A DNA stretch of 64,000 nucleotides from Pseudomonas sp. (GTDB taxonomy: Bacteria; Pseudomonadota; Gammaproteobacteria; Pseudomonadales; Pseudomonadaceae): assembly GCF_030698175.1 (NCBI RefSeq), contig NZ_JAUYNT010000011.1, positions 4,748-68,747 on the forward strand, in the 5' to 3' direction. Positions 6,803 to 64,000 of the stretch are shown in pieces; within the stretch, counting starts at the first letter, position 1, and the number at the start of each line of letters is the position of its first letter. The notes beneath the pieces are model-generated. The model saw nothing but the letters and a program-made list of their open reading frames with translations, did not search any database and was not told where the DNA came from. The translations under genes and the position numbers were made by a program.

Positions 6803-7614
6803 TGCGAGCACTGATCGGCGTCGCCCTGACGCTGCTGCTACCCCTGCCGGCCCTCGCCATCGAGACCGGCAGCGTGTTTCGTGACGCACTGAGCAACGAC
6901 CAGCAAGGCCCGGAGTTAGTCGCTTTGCCGGCCGGCAGCTTGGTGCTGGGCGACAGTCTTAATCGCGGTAACGACAACGAACGGCCGCCGCGCCCGACCC
7001 AGATCCAGCAGGCCTTCGCCCTCGGCCGCTTCGAGGTGACCTTCGCCGACTGGCAGCTGTACGCCGACGCCACCGGCAAACCCATGCCCGACAACGAAGG
7101 CTGGGGCTTGTCGGCGCAGCGCCCGGTAATCAACGTCAGCTGGTTTGCCGCCCAGGGCTATTGCCAATGGCTGAGTAAAGTCAGCGGCCAGCGTTATCGC
7201 CTGCCAACCGAGGCCGAGTGGGAATATGCCGCCCGCGCCGGTAGCCAAAGCTACTACTGGTGGGGAGCGCAACTCGACAGCGACGAACAACAACCGCGCG
7301 CCCATTGCCGTGGCTGCGGCACCGCCAGGCAAATCGCCAGCAAAACCGCACTGGTCGGCCAGTTCGCGCCGAATGCCTTTGGTCTCTACGACACCGCAGG
7401 CAATGTCTGGGAATGGACCGCCTCGACCTTTGCCGCCCCCTATGACGGCCACGAACAAGGCCGCGCCGGCCTGCTCGATAACAGCCCACGAGTCACCCGC
7501 GGTGGCGCCTGGAACAGCGGCCCGGTGTATCTGCGCAGCAGCCTGCGCGACATGAAGCAGCCGCAAGTCAAAGACTATGCCCAGGGTTTGCGGGTGCTGC
7601 GCGAGCTGCCCTGA
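6799..7614 (+). CDS. Exported FGE-sulfatase (SUMF1-fold) domain protein
   Basis: FEVTFADW, RPVINVSW, RLPTEAEWEYAARAG, GNVWEW and RVTRGGAW motifs; N-terminal signal peptide; overlaps hinT stop. Confidence 0.85.
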   Translation: MMRALIGVALTLLLPLPALAIETGSVFRDALSNDQQGPELVALPAGSLVLGDSLNRGNDNERPPRPTQIQQAFALGRFEVTFADWQLYADATGKPMPDNEGWGLSAQRPVINVSWFAAQGYCQWLSKVSGQRYRLPTEAEWEYAARAGSQSYYWWGAQLDSDEQQPRAHCRGCGTARQIASKTALVGQFAPNAFGLYDTAGNVWEWTASTFAAPYDGHEQGRAGLLDNSPRVTRGGAWNSGPVYLRSSLRDMKQPQVKDYAQGLRVLRELP

Positions 7615-58134: not shown

Positions 58135-58164
58135 TTGGCGCTAACCGCACCACCTCGTTATAAT
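58135..58164 (+). promoter_or_regulatory. tRNA promoter
   Basis: TTGGCG-N18-TATAAT followed by GC-rich CCGCCGGC. Confidence 0.6.
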
Positions 58165-58178
58165 CCGCCGGCTTTCTG

Positions 58179-58255
58179 GGGCCCATAGCTCAGTTGGTTA
58201 GAGCAGAGGACTCATAATCCTTTGGTCCACGGTTCGAGTCCGTGTGGGCCCACCA
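58179..58255 (+). tRNA. tRNA with CAT anticodon, most likely tRNA-Ile2
   Basis: 77 nt; GGGCCCA/TGGGCCC acceptor stem, CTCATAA loop, GTTCGAG T-loop, encoded CCA; C4/C5 and position after rpoD favour Ile2 over Met. Confidence 0.93.
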
Positions 58256-58260
58256 GCTTC

Positions 58261-58286
58261 AAAGCCCCGCAATGCGGGGCTTTTTT
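58261..58286 (+). terminator. tRNA intrinsic terminator
   Basis: AAAGCCCCGC-AAT-GCGGGGCTTTTTT. Confidence 0.88.
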
Positions 58287-58383
58287 ATGCACGCTAGAAA
58301 AGCAGCTAGAGCAGTCCTATAGTCCAAAGGTACAAATTCAGTACAGTGCCGGTACAGCAGCACACCTTTGGAGCAGAAAAAAG

Positions 58384-59457
58384 ATGGCCACCATCGTCAA
58401 AACGGAAGCCGGCACATGGAAAGCCCTAGTGCGCAAAACAGGCTGGCCGACCAATACCAAAACCTTCCGCACCAAGCGCGACGCCGAAGACTGGGCACGC
58501 CGCACCGAGGACGAAATGGTCAGGGGCGTGTACATCCAGCGCAGCGGCTCCGAACGCTTGACCTTGGAAATGGCCCTGAAGCGCTACCTCAGCGAGGTCA
58601 GCCCAACCAAGAAGCCGACCACCCAGCGCGCAGAAGCCACCAAAGCCCAGCAGCTGATCAGCCACCTGGGCAAATACTCCATGGCCGCCCTCTCCGCTGA
58701 AATCATCGCCGGCTACCGCGATGCCCGCCTGGCCTCGATCACCAATCGCGACAAACCCACCAGCAACAACACCGTGCGCCTAGAGCTGGCCCTACTCAGC
58801 CACCTGTTCACCGTAGCCATTCAGGAATGGGGCCTGGGCCTCAGCTTCAACCCAGTGCTAAACATACGCAAACCAAGCCCCGGCGAAGGCCGTGACCGCC
58901 GTTTATCCGCAGAAGAAGAACGCCGCCTGCTGACAGCCGTAAACAATCACAGCAACCCCATGCTCGGCTGGATCGTCCGCATCGCGCTGGAAACAGGCAT
59001 GCGCTCATCCGAAATCACATCCCTGCGCAGACATCAGGTTGATATGAAAAAGCGCGTGGTGCGCCTCTCAGACACCAAGAACGATAGCGCACGCACCGTC
59101 CCACTCAGCAAGTGGGCCACAGAAACATTCCAGACAGCGCTGAACAACCCGATACGGCCGACTGACTGTGACCTGGTGTTCTTTGGCGAGCCAGGCAAAA
59201 ACGGCAAGCGCAGCCCCTACGCCTTCACCAAGACATGGGGACTACTGAAAACCAAACTCGGCATGCCGGATCTGCGCTTCCACGACCTGCGGCATGAGGC
59301 GGTAAGCCGATTGGTCGAAGGCGGCCTATCCGACCAGGAGGTGTCCGCCATCAGCGGGCACAAGTCGATGCAGATGCTGAAGCGCTACACGCACCTGCGG
59401 GCAGAGGACTTGGTAGGGAAACTAGATAGAATTACGAGCAGCGGGCTAGCCGATTGA
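58384..59457 (+). CDS. Tyrosine recombinase/integrase
   Basis: Catalytic set TGMR, TKN, FHDLRHE, SGHKS and KRYTH intact. Confidence 0.96.
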   Translation: MATIVKTEAGTWKALVRKTGWPTNTKTFRTKRDAEDWARRTEDEMVRGVYIQRSGSERLTLEMALKRYLSEVSPTKKPTTQRAEATKAQQLISHLGKYSMAALSAEIIAGYRDARLASITNRDKPTSNNTVRLELALLSHLFTVAIQEWGLGLSFNPVLNIRKPSPGEGRDRRLSAEEERRLLTAVNNHSNPMLGWIVRIALETGMRSSEITSLRRHQVDMKKRVVRLSDTKNDSARTVPLSKWATETFQTALNNPIRPTDCDLVFFGEPGKNGKRSPYAFTKTWGLLKTKLGMPDLRFHDLRHEAVSRLVEGGLSDQEVSAISGHKSMQMLKRYTHLRAEDLVGKLDRITSSGLAD

Positions 59458-59581
59458 CTGAAATCTCGTTGGTCTGTGCTGCAACTGAAAGCCCTCAGGT
59501 GTTTGCTCATCAGTACTGCTCCCCCAAAAAGGATGGACAAGTCCGTACTTTTTGGGGGAGCCCAGCTTAAATCTTTCAAGC

Positions 59582-60880
59582 TCAAGACAGCCCATATAGC
59601 TGCTGCTTCAGCAGACTCGTTGAGATTTCATCAGCATCACGACGAACCAGTACTGCAACCTCGCGCTCCAGCAACCCCATGTGCTGTGCAATTTCCGGGA
59701 TTGGCATGCCCTGCGCGTACAGTGATTTCAGCTCAGTAAATACAGCATCACTCACTGGCGACTCGCCGGTCGTAGGGTCGATACATGCTCTTGCCCGACG
59801 CAGCCTGACTAAATCATCAAGCCCCTTCCAAGCCTTAGATACTGCCTGGCGAGAAATCCCAAGCCGCCTGGCAATTTCCGCCTGATGAAGCCCTTCCTTA
59901 TGAAGAACCCAAATCTTTTCACGAAGGCCTGGATTGGTTGCCGGCGATGCCGTCACGGGACGTAACTTGGAGTGCACTTGGTCATAAGCAGTCTTGCGCA
60001 GCTCCTGTGTATCGGCACCATTAGGCAACGGAAACCGAAACAAAAAGCCGGAACGCCCTCGCCCCCTCAAAGCCTCTAGCTCACGTCGGAAAGCCTGCTT
60101 GTATGGAAGATCACGGCGGTATCGTGATTTGGGCTCACCAGGATCGTGGACTTCACAATATCGGTTACTCAGCTTTCTCCACTTAGCTTCTGGCGAATAC
60201 TTGCTAGGGCCTTCCTCTGTGCAAACCAACGAACTCCACCTCTTCGTCATACGCCAGCAGAGCTCACAATACGAGGCCGCCTGCGGCCGAGTGCGATCAT
60301 CACTCAACCAATTGCCGAAGTAGATGGAGCGACCTGGACGCAGCGCAGCAAGAACCGAGAGCAGCCGCATTGCAGTATCCAACGTACTGCAAAAGTGGTG
60401 ACAGGCAGGCTCATATGGATCGCTCACAGCGTCCTGAGCACTTCGAATCACATACCGTAGATTTGTATACCAAAGCCGAAGATTAGAAACCTGCCAGTCC
60501 ACATCCATGGTGTCTGGTGGCTTCATCTCAAACTGATCTATCTTGCTGATTCTTAGCTCTGTCCGGTCATACCCACTCGGGCACTCAATTATCACGGGAT
60601 CAGCTCGCCATTCAGGTGGACTCTTCCCCATGCCAGATAGCTTCATGTTGCCCAACAGCTGATTGGGCCAGCCCCCTGAATAACTTTCGACAGCATGCGT
60701 AAAGGCTTCATCTAGAATCGACCTGACCCCTGCCCAAACAGAATACCTACGGGATGTCAGGCTATACGAAGAGGTCAGTTTTGCCGAAAACAATGCAATG
60801 CACTCAGCAAAGCCCGGATCACACTGATCAAATGCTGTGAGCTGCTGCAAGTGGACAGCGAAGTTTTCAGCTCGTCTCAT
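59582..60880 (-). CDS. Hypothetical DNA-binding protein (CxxC..CxxH motif plus two C-terminal HTH-like segments)
   Basis: YCELCWR..YCEVHDP; GLHQAEIARRLGISRQAVSK; GMPIPEIAQHMGL. Confidence 0.75.
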   Translation of the reverse strand: MRRAENFAVHLQQLTAFDQCDPGFAECIALFSAKLTSSYSLTSRRYSVWAGVRSILDEAFTHAVESYSGGWPNQLLGNMKLSGMGKSPPEWRADPVIIECPSGYDRTELRISKIDQFEMKPPDTMDVDWQVSNLRLWYTNLRYVIRSAQDAVSDPYEPACHHFCSTLDTAMRLLSVLAALRPGRSIYFGNWLSDDRTRPQAASYCELCWRMTKRWSSLVCTEEGPSKYSPEAKWRKLSNRYCEVHDPGEPKSRYRRDLPYKQAFRRELEALRGRGRSGFLFRFPLPNGADTQELRKTAYDQVHSKLRPVTASPATNPGLREKIWVLHKEGLHQAEIARRLGISRQAVSKAWKGLDDLVRLRRARACIDPTTGESPVSDAVFTELKSLYAQGMPIPEIAQHMGLLEREVAVLVRRDADEISTSLLKQQLYGLS

Positions 60881-60970
60881 GTCAACCTAAAACCATAACT
60901 CTATGTCTCCATCCTAGGCGTATTCATGCGTAACGTTCAACCTACATTCCACATGTAGGCGTAACCACCA

Positions 60971-61189
60971 ATGACCACCGAAGAACTAATCTTGAGCAGC
61001 AACGGCGGCTCGCCCCTGCTATCCCTCGGGCAGGTTGCTGAAATTCTCCATCGCAGCCCGGAAGGGCTCCGCATAACGCTCTCCGGGGACAATGAGATTG
61101 CCCGGAAGCTAAAGCCCGCACGGATAAAGATCGGTCGGCGCGTCTACTTTCGAGTGGGTTCTATCGCTCAATTCATTGATGAGGCCTGA
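60971..61189 (+). CDS. Small excisionase/AlpA-like DNA-binding protein
   Basis: LLSLGQVAEILHRSPEGLR...IKIGRRVYFR pattern; 72 aa; directly upstream of rep. Confidence 0.75.
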   Translation: MTTEELILSSNGGSPLLSLGQVAEILHRSPEGLRITLSGDNEIARKLKPARIKIGRRVYFRVGSIAQFIDEA

Positions 61190-61199
61190 GCGAGTCCCG

Positions 61200-62093
61200 A
61201 TGTACCTGACTGACAAAATTGCTCGGATGCAACAGGTCGCATTAGAGCGCCCAAAACCGTGCGTAGAGCCTGCGCTGTCAGTCGCAGCAATGCCTGTTTA
61301 TCAGATGCCATTTTGGCCTGAAGAGACCCGCGGCGTGCCCAATGCGCTGCTCCGCTCAGCCTTATTTTCCGCAACGACTAAAAGTACACGCCGCTACGTA
61401 GACCGAGAGCTGCTGCACGCTCAGGGAGACATGCGAATTCGTTATAGCGGCCCCGGCTTGGGACAGGGTGATTTAGACGTTTGGGAAACAGTGCTGCACC
61501 TTGCCCGCTCTTACACCCAGAGCTTCGAGATACGAACGACCAGTTACCAACTCCTGAAGCTACAGAGCAAAGCCGATGCCGGTACAAATCGTAAAGCGCT
61601 GCACAGCTGCATCGTCCGCCTAAAGGCTTCCGCTGTGGAGATCGAACACGGCCCCTACAGTTATGTGGGTAGCCTGATTGACGAAGCTTTCCGAGATATG
61701 GCCACGAATGAATACGTCATACGTTTGAACCCAAGGCTCTGCGGCCTCTTCGTGCATGGCTCATTCACACGAGTAGACTGGGATGTCAGGCGCTCGCTTT
61801 CTGGTAAACCACTGGCGCAATGGCTGCATGGCTATTTCTCCAGCCACGCCAAGCCATTCCCGATCGGTATCGAAACACTTTTGCGCCTCTCAGGCAGTAA
61901 CGATCAATCAGTACATAGCGGCGTGCAAAATGTGCGCAGAGCACTGGATGCGCTGGCCCGCTCCAGTAATGAGCATGCTCAACTCTTCAGTTACACGATC
62001 CACAATAAAACGGTGCATGTCGTTCGGCAGCCAACCAAAGCGCAGCGTAAACACCTGGGAAACCGGTCGCTGCGCAGTCAAAAAAAGCAATAG
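61200..62093 (+). CDS. trfA: TrfA-family replication initiator (297 aa)
   Basis: QMPFWPEETRGVPNALLRSALF, YSGPGLGQGDLDVW, YVGSLID and LAQWLHGYFSSH motifs. Confidence 0.85.
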   Translation: MYLTDKIARMQQVALERPKPCVEPALSVAAMPVYQMPFWPEETRGVPNALLRSALFSATTKSTRRYVDRELLHAQGDMRIRYSGPGLGQGDLDVWETVLHLARSYTQSFEIRTTSYQLLKLQSKADAGTNRKALHSCIVRLKASAVEIEHGPYSYVGSLIDEAFRDMATNEYVIRLNPRLCGLFVHGSFTRVDWDVRRSLSGKPLAQWLHGYFSSHAKPFPIGIETLLRLSGSNDQSVHSGVQNVRRALDALARSSNEHAQLFSYTIHNKTVHVVRQPTKAQRKHLGNRSLRSQKKQ

Positions 62094-62178
62094 AAGATAC
62101 CGTAGCAGTGGCTAGAAAATACCGAAGCGCTGGCTAGGACATACCGAAGCACTGGCTAGAGAACCCCGAAGCATTGGC
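62091..62178 (+). repeat. Four tandem 22-bp iterons (putative oriV)
   Basis: TAGAAGATACCGTAGCAGTGGC, TAGAAAATACCGAAGCGCTGGC, TAGGACATACCGAAGCACTGGC, TAGAGAACCCCGAAGCATTGGC. Confidence 0.88.
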
Positions 62179-62397
62179 TAATTTTATGGCCGGCAAACTG
62201 CCCTGCGGCCCCCGAAACCATTGGCCTCCGTCACCAAAGGCAGAAGCCTCTAATCCTTTCTAATCTATTTAGAATCAAGAACATCTACCGCACATCACCA
62301 CCGGCAGGAACAGGGTAAACAGCTCTGCAACAGCGTGGACGGGGTATCACCCGTCGCCATAGCCATTACCATCTAGAGCCCCCCGAGAACATTCGCC

Positions 62398-62714
62398 ATG
62401 CTTCCTATGCACAATCCACCACACTCAGGCGAAGCCCTACGTGCAGACGTGCTCCCAGCGCTGGGGCTAACAGCTGTGAGCCTGACTAAGCGCCTAGGCT
62501 GCCGCCCAGCCTACTTTCAGCAGTCATGCTATGCGTTACCCCCATAAGCCACGAACTCGCTATACAGCTCGAATTTGCAGGCTTGGGCAGAGCCGGCCAT
62601 TGGCTAGCCCAGCAAGCCGCCTATGACCGCTGGCAAGCGCAACAAAAAGCCCTCATAAATGAGGGCTTTCCGAATAGATCACGGTCAGCGCTGTTCGTAG
62701 TCAGATCGGCGTAG
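62398..62714 (+). pseudogene. higA: HigA-like Xre antitoxin split by a 1-nt frameshift near 62515
   Basis: Frame 1 MLPMHNPPHSGEALRADVLPALGL..KRLG stops at 62547; the -1 frame continues SAVMLCVTPISHELAIQLEFAGLGRAGHWLAQQAAYDRWQA. Confidence 0.7.
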
Positions 62715-63015
62715 CCTCCTGGGAACGTCGAAGCTTGTTAAACAAGAGTGCTGCCAACCCGGCATAAAATACAACGACACTAAAAAATCCGCTCAGGGAC
62801 GTCCCTTTAGCCACGTCAACACAATCCTGTAAAACAACTATCCAAGTTACAAGCAAGCACAAATTCAGCAGAGTACAATTTGCCGTTTGTGCAGCTATGT
62901 TTTCAACGTTCAAAGCAGCACGAACACATCTAACATTCTTTTGCGTCAGAGTAGCCACTATGAAAGTTGCTACCACAGCAATAGAGCCCACCAATAATAA
63001 TAGATACAGATTCAT
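62701..63015 (-). CDS. Small membrane protein (about three hydrophobic segments)
   Basis: 104-aa ORF starting 2 nt after the virB6 stop; AT-rich. Confidence 0.6.
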   Translation of the reverse strand: MNLYLLLLVGSIAVVATFIVATLTQKNVRCVRAALNVENIAAQTANCTLLNLCLLVTWIVVLQDCVDVAKGTSLSGFFSVVVFYAGLAALLFNKLRRSQEATPI

Positions 63016-63016
63016 T

Positions 63017-64000
63017 TTAACCTCGCGAAACATTATTAAAGCGCGATGCAGTTAGCTGCCTATACGCCGCCATAGGAATACCAGCCACTCTTGCTGTACT
63101 ACCTGGATTCTGGCTAGCCCATCTTGCATTACTATCTTTTTGGCGACGAGCCGCACGCATATCAGACAGCGTTTTACCTGTAGCAATGTTTTTTGCTCCA
63201 ACCACTCCACCTTTCGCCTTGTTGTATACCGCCCCTGCAGCGCCCAACGTGCTGATCGCGACTCCACCACCTAATGCAGACGCGACAGAGTTAACCTGCG
63301 CAAGCAGTAGCGAACCGATAACACAAATAGCCGCAGCGGGAACAATATCACTCACTTGCGGATCAAGCTTTATGCCTGCACCACTCTCCGTGAGATACAT
63401 TTCAAGAACCGCCATCACCAATTTTATACATGCGCCGGCAAGTACAACGGTAAAACCATAGTTTAGAGCCTGACCTAACCAGCCCTCAAAAAAACGCTTT
63501 GTCGAATCGAACATCAGCAACACTATAAATATCGGTCCAAGGGCAAGCAGAATAGCCAGCATGAATTTAGAAAGGCATAGAAGAAACGCGGCATAAGCCG
63601 TCAAAGCCAAACCAACAGTCCAAACGGCAACAGCGCAAAGAATCAATCCAATGTGCGGAATAGTCGATGCGGTGCCCTTGACCCAAAAAGATGCGCCTAG
63701 CGAATACATCTGTGACATCAGACCATCGAGATATGCTGCCGAACCTGAGCCGGGCGCACCTTGCACAACAAGCGCCGCCAGCGCCTCTGGAAAACGCCAA
63801 ATAAAATCGACTACAGAATCATTGTAATAACCAACGTTCAGGGCTAACCCCGCGATCAGGGAGAGTCGCATCACACGCCACGCAAAATCCGTAATAAGCT
63901 CATCAATCACACCTCGCATCATCATCAATCCGTGAATGATGAAATACAGCACTAAAAGTTGTGAGGTGACCGGTCCGATTGAATCCATTACCCTGACCAC
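63017..64000 (-). CDS. virB6: VirB6/TrbL type IV secretion protein (5' end beyond the window)
   Basis: Multi-TM; LAILLALGPIFIVLLMFDSTKRFFEGWLGQALNY and VASALGGG motifs. Confidence 0.88.
   Translation of the reverse strand: MVRVMDSIGPVTSQLLVLYFIIHGLMMMRGVIDELITDFAWRVMRLSLIAGLALNVGYYNDSVVDFIWRFPEALAALVVQGAPGSGSAAYLDGLMSQMYSLGASFWVKGTASTIPHIGLILCAVAVWTVGLALTAYAAFLLCLSKFMLAILLALGPIFIVLLMFDSTKRFFEGWLGQALNYGFTVVLAGACIKLVMAVLEMYLTESGAGIKLDPQVSDIVPAAAICVIGSLLLAQVNSVASALGGGVAISTLGAAGAVYNKAKGGVVGAKNIATGKTLSDMRAARRQKDSNARWASQNPGSTARVAGIPMAAYRQLTASRFNNVSRG

What the first reader, a model, noticed from the sequence alone, without database searches (positions are those of the whole stretch)
62091..62290. 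Iteron array fused to the trfA stop codon plus AT-rich unwinding tract (oriV)
Seen: four head-to-tail 22-bp repeats (consensus TAGRRNAYMCCGWAGCRNTGGC), the first starting at the trfA TAG; a degenerate fifth core CCCCGAAACCATTGGC at 62210-62225; an AT-rich tract with CTAATC twice at about 62245-62285. A 22-bp period is two helical turns, as in iteron origins such as RK2 oriV. No perfect DnaA box is visible. Inference: cis origin for the adjacent TrfA, with a specificity distinct from RK2.
Basis: partly seen in the sequence, partly recalled or inferred. Interest (0 to 1): 0.72.

Follow-up and report, generated by a model that had tools for sequence, protein, structure and literature searches.

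The report
Replication origin of a mobilizable island
The four 22-bp repeats are real and are most likely the replication origin of a small chromosomal island that hitch-hikes on conjugative plasmids; the layout is already known from related islands and plasmids, so this is a well-supported but ordinary finding.

Summary
Four in-phase 22-bp repeats (62091-62178) start at the TAG stop of a 297-aa TrfA-family gene. About 70 nt further on lies the most AT-rich 40-mer in this part of the island, with TAATC repeats.

The interpretation, a cis origin for the adjacent initiator, is supported by comparison:
- 59 of 74 homologous loci have a 21-23-bp array at the stop codon.
- 63 of 72 have TAATC repeats at a fixed distance downstream, against 1 of 302 control stretches.
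- Many have a DnaA box directly after the last iteron.
- A natural 10.4-kb Azotobacter plasmid (pAcX50a) has this module, and its trfA is its only gene annotated as a replication gene.

It lies in a 19.2-kb island at a tRNA-Met gene next to rpoD. The island has int, alpA, a divergent HTH regulator, trbJ-trbK-trbL without the rest of a type IV secretion system, an IncP-type nic core and defence cargo. That is a PIME/GIsul2-type integrative mobilizable element. A 2026 preprint maps such an oriV, with four iterons just downstream of repA, by experiment.

In this copy the DnaA-box position is degenerate, so present-day function is not certain.

Verdict: new member of a known kind. The scan has met PIME-type islands on other genomes; those carried RK2-type iterons without an initiator gene of their own.

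The parts
58179..58256 (+). tRNA-Met (CAT). Its 3' 47 nt (58210-58256) are the left attachment repeat (attL) of the island.
   Evidence: ARAGORN. An exact direct repeat of at least 47 nt lies at C27:82188-82235, which would be 77441-77488 in window numbering, beyond the window's end.
58222..59457 (+). Tyrosine integrase. The listed ORF start overlaps the tRNA; the true start is probably further downstream.
   Evidence: PF00589, E 5.6e-30. About 90% nt identity to integrases of sister islands in other Pseudomonas.
59582..60880 (-). 432-aa regulator with C-terminal HTH motifs, divergent from alpA-trfA.
   Evidence: HTH_23/HTH_28/Sigma70_r4-type hits only. Homologs hold the same position in 7 sister loci.
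60941..60959 (.). Inverted repeat CCTACAT-N5-ATGTAGG, 12 nt upstream of the alpA start. Candidate operator.
   Evidence: Read directly from the sequence. Not tested.
60971..61189 (+). AlpA-like small HTH protein (72 aa). Its stop is 10 nt before the trfA start, so the two are probably co-transcribed.
   Evidence: PF12728 HTH_17, E 3.8e-5, 24.3 bits, below the cut-off of 27. 78-100% identical in sister islands.
61200..62093 (+). TrfA-family replication initiator, 297 aa, intact.
   Evidence: PF07042 61.9 bits. More than 2,400 homologs. BLASTP to RP4 TrfA E 5e-24, with the DNA-contacting motif (M/V)PN..RSALF conserved (PMC8034659).
62091..62178 (+). Four 22-bp iterons, the first including the TAG stop. 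The last one carries ACCCCG instead of ATACCG, as in relatives L004 and L005.
   Evidence: An array is present at the same place in 59 of 74 homologous loci.
62179..62200 (+). The position where relatives carry a DnaA box (YTATCCACA) directly after the last iteron. Here it reads TAATTTTATGGCC..., a degenerate sequence.
   Evidence: The conserved GGCAAAC that follows the box in relatives is retained.
62210..62225 (+). Iteron-like core out of register. Possible solitary fifth site.
   Evidence: Shared only with the closest relative. Status open.
62248..62287 (.). AT-rich tract with TAATC (62251), TAATC (62261) and TAGAATC (62270) at 9-10-bp spacing. Candidate DNA unwinding element.
   Evidence: Tied for the lowest-G+C 40-mer in the island part of the window. 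TAATC pairs occur in 63 of 72 relatives and 1 of 302 control stretches, at a fixed distance of about 69 nt after the DnaA-box position.
62398..62714 (+). Frameshifted higA-type antitoxin gene, split over two frames.
   Evidence: TIGR02607 profile positions 1-35 match the first ORF and 45-80 the second.
62701..63033 (-). 110-aa ORF of unknown function, last gene of the trbJ-trbK-trbL operon.
   Evidence: No family hit. 86% identical in L004.
63017..64000 (-). trbL/virB6, running off the window's end. The full gene is L002:4965-6029.
   Evidence: PF04610, E 1e-46.

Best explanation
**What it is.** The array is the iteron set of the vegetative origin (oriV) of a 19.2-kb integrative mobilizable element inserted at tRNA-Met next to rpoD.

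**Inferred mechanism.**
1. The alpA-trfA unit is switched on, by analogy after a helper conjugative plasmid arrives and the island excises as a circle.
2. The island's own TrfA-family initiator binds the four 22-bp iterons that start at its stop codon.
3. This opens the AT-rich TAATC-repeat tract about 70 nt downstream.
4. The host helicase and replisome load, and the excised circle replicates in theta mode.
5. The copies then leave through the IncP-type oriT, using a helper's mating pore in which the island's TrbJ/TrbK/TrbL replace the helper's own proteins.

**Shown here.** The repeats. The TrfA-family identity of the gene. The family-wide conservation of the order iterons, DnaA-box position, TAATC element. 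The island's borders and gene content.

**Inferred only.** Binding, unwinding, helper dependence, and whether this copy still fires. It has lost the DnaA box that relatives carry.
For: - The repeats are real and non-random.
- The adjacent gene is TrfA-family, with the DNA-contacting motif and the residue equivalent to RK2 P151 conserved (PMC8034659).
- 59 of 74 homologous loci have a 21-23-bp array, median 4.4 copies. In 35 of them it starts within 5 nt of the stop codon.
- TAATC pairs occur in 63 of 72 loci against 1 of 302 controls. A DnaA box with 1 mismatch or fewer occurs in 36 of 72 against 18 of 302, typically directly after the last iteron and 69 nt before the first TAATC.
- Iteron divergence tracks TrfA divergence: Spearman rho 0.62, reached by 0 of 1000 label permutations.
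- The complete 10.4-kb plasmid pAcX50a has this trfA as its only gene annotated as a replication gene, followed by six such iterons and TAATC repeats.
- Arrays accompany trfA in loci that lack the island's other DNA-binding proteins.
- Island context: att repeats; int, alpA, trbJ and trbL with no other T4SS gene; the 11-nt RP4 nic core.
- Precedents: in PIME1-MmNCTC12028 the oriV lies immediately downstream of repA, with four iterons, a DnaA box and an AT-rich region, and cloned repA-oriV replicates (bioRxiv 10.64898/2026.01.12.698999). SGI1 has the same arrangement (PMC7433901).
Against: - There is no experimental evidence for this copy.
- The position that holds a DnaA box in relatives is degenerate here (5 of 9 matches by my count from the sequence; no box with 1 mismatch or fewer within 330 nt).
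- The third TAATC repeat is imperfect.
- The neighbouring higA is broken, so some local decay has occurred.
- The protein has no counterpart of the N-terminal 97 residues of RK2 TrfA-44. From memory, that extension is what allows DnaA-independent helicase loading in Pseudomonas aeruginosa.
- The rho value partly reflects simple linkage, because adjacent DNA diverges together.
- I could not check whether the PIME RepA proteins are TrfA-family.
Confidence: 0.82

Rival explanations
1. Inactive relic. The module evolved as an origin, but this copy no longer fires because the DnaA box and part of the unwinding element have decayed. The island would then be maintained only by integration.
For: - The DnaA-box position is degenerate, and 7 of its 22 bases differ from the closest relative L004, 5 of them inside the box core.
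- The third TAATC is imperfect.
- The adjacent higA is frameshifted.
- There are four iterons against five in L004.
Against: - trfA is intact and keeps every invariant family residue.
- Half of the family (36 of 72 loci) has no DnaA box with 1 mismatch or fewer, 16 of the 22 Pseudomonas-group loci among them (with hosts). A strict box may therefore be dispensable.
- The unusual last iteron (ACCCCG) is conserved in L004 and L005, which argues for constraint.
- The spacing from the iterons to the TAATC element is kept at 72 nt, as in L004.
Confidence: 0.12
2. The repeats serve mainly as a control or incompatibility element: TrfA titration, handcuffing, or autoregulation of read-through transcription. 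The true start site would lie elsewhere.
For: Iterons in known plasmids also mediate handcuffing and incompatibility (discussed for SGI1 in PMC7433901). No terminator separates trfA from the array.
Against: The array sits in a fixed geometry with a DnaA box and an AT-rich repeat element in most relatives, which is origin anatomy. No second array was found in the island's genome-wide core search. Control and origin roles are not exclusive.
Confidence: 0.04
3. The repeats are binding sites for another island protein, either the 432-aa HTH regulator or AlpA, or they form a partition centromere.
For: The HTH regulator also diverges among sister islands, roughly in parallel with the iterons.
Against: The arrays follow trfA in dozens of loci, and in plasmid pAcX50a, where no homolog of the HTH regulator or of AlpA was detected within the sequence held (up to 6 kb on each side; the whole of pAcX50a). 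No parA or parB gene lies between the att sites.
Confidence: 0.02

Closest known systems
PIME family of integrative mobilizable elements (Perta et al., bioRxiv 10.64898/2026.01.12.698999). oriV was mapped in PIME1-MmNCTC12028.
   Same: - Core set of int, alpA, a replicase, and trbJ/trbL without a full T4SS.
- IncP-like oriT and large defence cargo.
- oriV immediately downstream of the replicase gene, with four iterons and an AT-rich region.
- By the preprint's orientation rule (int, alpA and rep one way, trbJ/trbL the other), this island is PIME3-type.
   Different: - The mapped example is PIME1 from Morganella. No PIME3 origin is described in the text I could read.
- The preprint never uses the name TrfA, so the replicase family may differ.
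- This copy lacks the DnaA box.
- The divergent regulator here has no LuxR/GerE Pfam hit.
- No traJ or traI was found here.
RK2/RP4 (IncP-1) TrfA-oriV
   Same: Initiator of the same Pfam family, with the DNA-contacting motif conserved. Directly repeated sites with a 22-23-bp period in about 4-5 copies. An AT-rich unwinding element beside the iterons.
   Different: - Only 27% protein identity.
- The iteron sequences are unrelated: ATACCGAAGCACTGGCTAG here, against TGACAGTTGAGGGGC in RP4 (reverse complement of the strand shown).
- The origin abuts the initiator's stop codon, whereas in RP4 it lies about 4 kb from trfA.
- The protein is of TrfA-33 size and has no TrfA-44 extension.
SGI1 rep-oriV (Huguet et al. 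2020, PMC7433901)
   Same: A mobilizable island with its own iteron origin immediately downstream of rep (four iterons, a DnaA box, AT-rich flanks). It replicates only after excision and also replaces subunits of the helper's mating pore.
   Different: The initiator belongs to a different family (the review lists SGI1's initiator under the Rep_3 superfamily). The iterons are 17 bp. The helper is IncA/IncC and the replaced pore proteins are TraN/G/H.
GIsul2 / IncP island / BcenGI2 (Guedon et al. 2017, PMC5704250)
   Same: Islands with int, alpA and trbJ-trbK-trbL that are proposed to exploit IncP plasmids and that encode replication proteins.
   Different: Their replicases are given as RepA+RepC, RepA or Rep_3, and they insert at guaA. 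tblastn with this TrfA against 72,556 plasmid records, a collection I expect (from the review) to include GIsul2-carrying IncC plasmids, listed nothing closer than about 49%; I did not check any hit for GIsul2.
Plasmid pAcX50a of Azotobacter chroococcum NCIMB 8003 (NZ_CP010416.1)
   Same: TrfA homolog at 49% identity, followed at its stop codon by six 22-bp iterons (GATACCGTCGCAGCAGGTAGGC) and TAATC repeats.
   Different: A free 10.4-kb circular plasmid with no integrase, alpA or trb genes. Its replication has not been studied as far as I could find.

Membership tests
TrfA family of replication initiators (PF07042) | Profile match above the curated threshold | tested here: met
   61.9 bits against a cut-off of 22, E 6.8e-17, covering 39-269 of 305 aa.
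TrfA family of replication initiators (PF07042) | Pairwise homology to RK2/RP4 TrfA across the DNA-binding domain and both winged-helix domains | tested here: met
   27% identity over 249 aa, E 5e-24. The RK2 peptide AMPNDTARSALF, which crosslinks to iteron DNA, and residue P151 (PMC8034659) align with GVPNALLRSALF. P47, N48, R52, S53 and F56 are invariant in the family alignment.
TrfA family of replication initiators (PF07042) | Sequence-specific binding to its iterons and initiation at oriV | not testable with these tools
   Needs EMSA or footprinting and a replication assay.
Iteron-type theta origin | Three or more direct repeats of about 17-22 bp in helical phase next to the cognate rep gene | tested here: met
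   Four repeats of 22 bp at 62091-62178, beginning at the trfA stop codon.
Iteron-type theta origin | DnaA box beside the iterons | tested here: not met
   No box with 1 mismatch or fewer in 62080-62420. Relatives carry YTATCCACA directly after the last iteron. A box with 1 mismatch or fewer occurs within 400 nt of the stop codon in 36 of 72 loci.
Iteron-type theta origin | AT-rich unwinding element with short repeats | tested here: met
   27.5% G+C 40-mer at 62248 with TAATC, TAATC and TAGAATC. Conserved in 63 of 72 relatives against 1 of 302 controls.
Iteron-type theta origin | Supports autonomous replication when Rep is supplied | not testable with these tools
   Indirect support only: pAcX50a, a natural plasmid with the same module.
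PIME (Pseudomonadota integrative mobilizable elements) | Co-occurrence of int, alpA, a replicase, trbJ and trbL within one integrated element | tested here: met
   int PF00589; alpA-like HTH_17 (weak, 24.3 bits against 27); TrfA; TrbJ/VirB5 PF07996; TrbL PF04610. All lie between 47-nt att repeats 19.2 kb apart.
PIME (Pseudomonadota integrative mobilizable elements) | No complete T4SS, coupling protein or (in some members) relaxase | tested here: met
   None of the ORFs of 80 aa or more that I scanned, which cover the non-overlapping ORFs of that size in the island, matches VirB4, VirB9-11, VirD4 or a relaxase.
PIME (Pseudomonadota integrative mobilizable elements) | oriT with an IncP-type nic site | tested here: met
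   ACCTATCCTGC at L002:7329-7339 (-) is identical to the single such site in RP4, which lies between traJ and traK. About 0.01 expected by chance in the island, by my calculation (38,400 positions / 4^11).
PIME (Pseudomonadota integrative mobilizable elements) | Replicase of the same family as the PIME RepA profile | tested here: inconclusive
   The preprint does not name the family, and its supplements are not held. blastn of this region against E. coli genomes found nothing.
PIME (Pseudomonadota integrative mobilizable elements) | Helper-induced excision, replication and transfer | not testable with these tools

The most novel reading that the evidence does not exclude
The TrfA-plus-iteron cassette may be an exchangeable specificity module. 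Sister islands in Pseudomonas keep a nearly identical integrase and attachment site (about 90% nt identity) but carry initiators only 46-53% identical, each with its own iterons. This could allow several such islands, or an island and its helper, to coexist without incompatibility. The frequent absence of a DnaA box in Pseudomonas-hosted members, this one included, could then mark a DnaA-independent way of loading the helicase by a short TrfA that lacks the RK2 TrfA-44 extension.
Probability: 0.2. Interest if true: 0.5.

Novelty: new member of a known kind. Interest (0 to 1): 0.3.

Why it matters
It shows that this defence-gene island probably carries its own replicon rather than borrowing the helper's, unlike the E. 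coli islands this scan met earlier, which have RK2-type iterons but no initiator gene. It also gives a clear, conserved origin layout for a large and little-studied TrfA clade of more than 2,400 proteins: iterons fused to the stop codon, then the DnaA-box position, then about 69 nt, then three TAATC repeats. That layout can be used to annotate origins in islands and small plasmids, to predict incompatibility groups from iteron sequence, and to choose fragments for building vectors. Conceptually it adds little beyond the SGI1 and PIME work.

Tried and rejected
- **Sequencing runs.** I could not look for excess read depth over the island or for attP/attB junction reads.
- **E. coli genomes.** blastn of 60971-62300 gave no match, so no direct comparison with PIME1-EcRHB23-C07 was possible.
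- **Preprint supplements.** They are not held. I could not check whether this island or its replicase family is listed.
- **Solved structures.** phmmer against PDB sequences gave only chance-level hits, E 0.55.
- **Promoters and terminators.** The scan of 60700-62800 found none.
- **Secondary structure.** Folding 62170-62300 as single-stranded DNA gave z = -1.38, not significant. No hairpin-based function is proposed.
- **oriT alignment.** MAFFT alignment of the island's oriT-like region with RP4 oriT was uninformative beyond the 11-nt nic core.
- **Literature lead.** PMC7765201 mentions trfA only for IncP-1 plasmids.
- **Partition site.** Rejected, because there are no par genes.
- **Binding site of the HTH regulator or AlpA.** Rejected, because the arrays follow trfA where no homolog of those proteins was detected.
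- **Self-transmissible ICE.** Rejected, because only trbJ, trbK and trbL are present.

Full report
**1. The observation**

The region reads as four head-to-tail 22-mers: TAGAAGATACCGTAGCAGTGGC, TAGAAAATACCGAAGCGCTGGC, TAGGACATACCGAAGCACTGGC and TAGAGAACCCCGAAGCATTGGC, at 62091-62178.

- Tandem Repeats Finder gives period 22, 4.1 copies, no indels and score 110, the best array in the window.
- A tight core pattern occurs in tandem nowhere else in the 4.55-Mb genome.
- The first repeat starts with the TAG that closes the ORF 61200-62093.
The 40-mer at 62248 has 27.5% G+C, tied for the lowest in 58257-64000.
- No DnaA box with 1 mismatch or fewer lies within 330 nt.

**2. The gene**

The ORF matches Pfam TrfA (PF07042) at 61.9 bits against a cut-off of 22. 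It has more than 2,400 homologs, many of them named 'plasmid replication initiator TrfA' by NCBI.

Against RP4 TrfA it is 27% identical over 249 residues, E 5e-24. The RK2 peptide AMPNDTARSALF was shown to contact iteron DNA, and P151 in it is needed for binding (PMC8034659). That peptide aligns with GVPNALLRSALF here, and those residues are invariant in the family alignment.

The protein is of TrfA-33 size. It has no counterpart of the TrfA-44 N-terminal extension.

**3. The surroundings**

Upstream lie dnaG, rpoD and a tRNA-Met(CAT) gene. The last 47 nt of the tRNA recur 19.2 kb downstream on the same contig, beyond the window's end. These two repeats bound an integrated element.

Its genes, in order:
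- a tyrosine integrase;
- a 432-aa HTH regulator on the opposite strand;
- a 72-aa AlpA-like protein whose stop is 10 nt before trfA;
- trfA and the repeats;
- a higA gene split by a frameshift;
- on the opposite strand, trbJ/virB5, a 78-aa lipoprotein in the trbK position, trbL/virB6 and a 110-aa ORF;
- cargo: a PstI-like restriction-modification pair, a NERD protein and a three-gene ABC-3C system.

No other type IV secretion gene, coupling protein or relaxase is present.

In the repeat-rich spacer beside trbJ lies ACCTATCCTGC. It is identical to the only such 11-mer in RP4, which sits in oriT between traJ and traK.

This is the gene set of the GIsul2 / IncP-island / PIME kind of integrative mobilizable element (PMC5704250; bioRxiv 10.64898/2026.01.12.698999). 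By the preprint's orientation rule it falls in subfamily PIME3.

**4. Comparative test of the origin reading**

I fetched 80 loci that encode relatives of the protein (38-97% identity) from Gamma- and Betaproteobacteria.

- **Arrays.** Of the loci with enough downstream sequence, 59 of 74 carry an array of 21-23-bp period, median 4.4 copies. In 35 of them it begins within 5 nt of the stop codon.
- **Shared core.** The left half of the repeat, (G)ATACCGT, is widely shared. The right half varies.
- **Layout.** Lined up on the downstream sequence, the loci share one architecture. After the last iteron comes a DnaA box (YTATCCACA), then GGC..AAC, then a spacer, then three TAATC repeats at 10-11-bp spacing. 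The first TAATC is typically 69 nt after the box.
- **Controls.** TAATC pairs occur in 63 of 72 downstream regions against 1 of 302 control stretches from the same loci. A DnaA box with 1 mismatch or fewer occurs in 36 of 72 against 18 of 302.
- **Co-divergence.** Iteron divergence rises with TrfA divergence: rho 0.62, reached by 0 of 1000 label permutations. Linkage alone would give some of this.
- **Independence from other proteins.** The arrays accompany trfA in loci where no homolog of the island's other DNA-binding proteins was detected.
- **A natural plasmid.** The complete 10.4-kb plasmid pAcX50a has this trfA as its only gene annotated as a replication gene. Six iterons follow its stop codon, then TAATC repeats.

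Together this is strong comparative evidence that the array and the AT-rich tract form the origin that the adjacent initiator uses.

**5. What is particular to this copy**

The window keeps the geometry: four iterons, then 72 nt to the first TAATC, as in its 97%-identical relative L004, which has five iterons.

The DnaA-box position, however, reads TAATTTTATGGCC. L004 still has GTCCACA there, and more distant Pseudomonas relatives have a perfect TTATCCACA. The third TAATC is TAGAATC.

Against a simple decay reading:
- trfA is intact;
- the odd last iteron (ACCCCG) is shared with L004 and L005;
- only 6 of 22 Pseudomonas-group loci have a good box.

From memory, RK2 replication in Pseudomonas aeruginosa does not need DnaA boxes, but that route uses the TrfA-44 extension, which this protein lacks. 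I therefore leave present-day function at roughly 60-70%.

**6. Specificity**

RP4's own oriV array has period 23, 4.8 copies and unit GCCCCTCAACTGTCAATAGATGC. It has no resemblance to these repeats. The window's iteron pattern has only chance-level, scattered hits in RP4.

**7. Mechanism proposed**

By analogy with PIME1 and SGI1, replication needs prior excision and is induced by a helper plasmid.

1. The alpA-trfA unit is switched on.
2. Int excises the circle.
3. TrfA binds the iterons.
4. The TAATC tract melts.
5. The host replisome copies the circle.
6. The copies leave through the IncP-type oriT, via a helper pore altered by the island's TrbJ/K/L.

Only the anatomy is shown here. Every functional step is inferred.

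**8. Novelty**

- An iteron origin directly downstream of rep in a mobilizable island was shown for SGI1 in 2020 and for PIME1 in 2026.
- TrfA homologs in such islands were noted in 2021 (PMC8409611).
- Earlier reports of this scan described PIME-type islands in other genomes. Those carried RK2-type iterons without an initiator of their own. This island is the self-sufficient counterpart.

It is a new member of a known kind. The conserved layout of this TrfA clade is a useful annotation rule rather than a new principle.

**9. Distribution**

In the host's genus, 9 of 150 other sampled genomes have a family member (E 1e-20 or better), none more than 48% identical. This fits a sporadically acquired mobile module.

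Sister islands in Pseudomonas share an integrase with about 90% nt identity but have swapped regulator and trfA-iteron modules.

Noticed in passing
window 58210-58256 and G000:C27:82188-82235 (L003:6189-6236): Exact direct repeat of at least 47 nt of the tRNA-Met 3' end. It bounds a 19.2-kb island that runs past the window's end. The core genome resumes with a DUF1329 gene.
   Followed up: yes
L002:6978-7547 (C27:69777-70346, beyond the window): Repeat-dense spacer beside trbJ. It holds three copies of GCATCTGGAAT (7104-7136), several GCTCTAA(T/C) motifs, TGCTCACAAAC repeats (about 7266-7298), the RP4-identical nic core ACCTATCCTGC on the minus strand (7329-7339), and two 20-nt palindromes, ATTTTCGCGTCCGCGAAAAT and ATTTTCGCGGACGCGAAAAA (about 7426-7481). 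Candidate oriT. No traJ or relaxase gene was found in the island.
   Followed up: partly
L002:4649-6977 (minus strand): trbJ, a 78-aa lipoprotein with an LAGC lipobox in the trbK position (weak EexN-family hit, E 0.1), trbL and a 110-aa ORF, with no other T4SS gene. This looks like a kit for altering a helper's mating pore and entry exclusion.
   Followed up: partly
window 62398-62714: higA antitoxin gene split by a frameshift into two ORFs (HigA profile positions 1-35 and 45-80). No higB is seen next to it.
   Followed up: yes
L002:9722-19084: Defence cargo: a PstI/BsuBI-like endonuclease with an Eco57I-type methylase, a NERD-topoisomerase zinc-ribbon protein, and a three-gene ABC-3C system (Cap4-nuclease/CTD1, MComp1, SMC-like ATPase).
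   Followed up: partly
window 58156-59430 against L007, L015, L028, L043: Mosaic islands. The tRNA and integrase are about 90% identical in nt among Pseudomonas islands, while alpA is 68-75% and the trfA-iteron module is only 46-53% identical at protein level. The replicon has been exchanged as a cassette.
   Followed up: partly
L078:6798-7179 (Pseudomonas sp. GM84): A relative with a greatly expanded array: 16.8 copies of a 23-bp iteron over about 380 nt. Unexplained.
   Followed up: no
L015, L035, L059, L060, L066 (array starts 33-46 nt before the stop codon): In several relatives the first one or two iterons lie inside the 3' end of trfA, so the protein's C-terminal tail is encoded by its own binding sites.
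   Followed up: no
window 60941-60959: Perfect 7-bp inverted repeat CCTACAT-N5-ATGTAGG, 12 nt upstream of the alpA start codon, in the divergent regulatory region. Candidate operator.
   Followed up: no
L004 (contig labelled as an uncultured Verrucomicrobiaceae MAG): The closest relative of the island (89% nt identity over 5.9 kb, including the Pseudomonas-type tRNA and integrase) sits in a bin labelled Verrucomicrobiaceae. This is probably a binning error.
   Followed up: no
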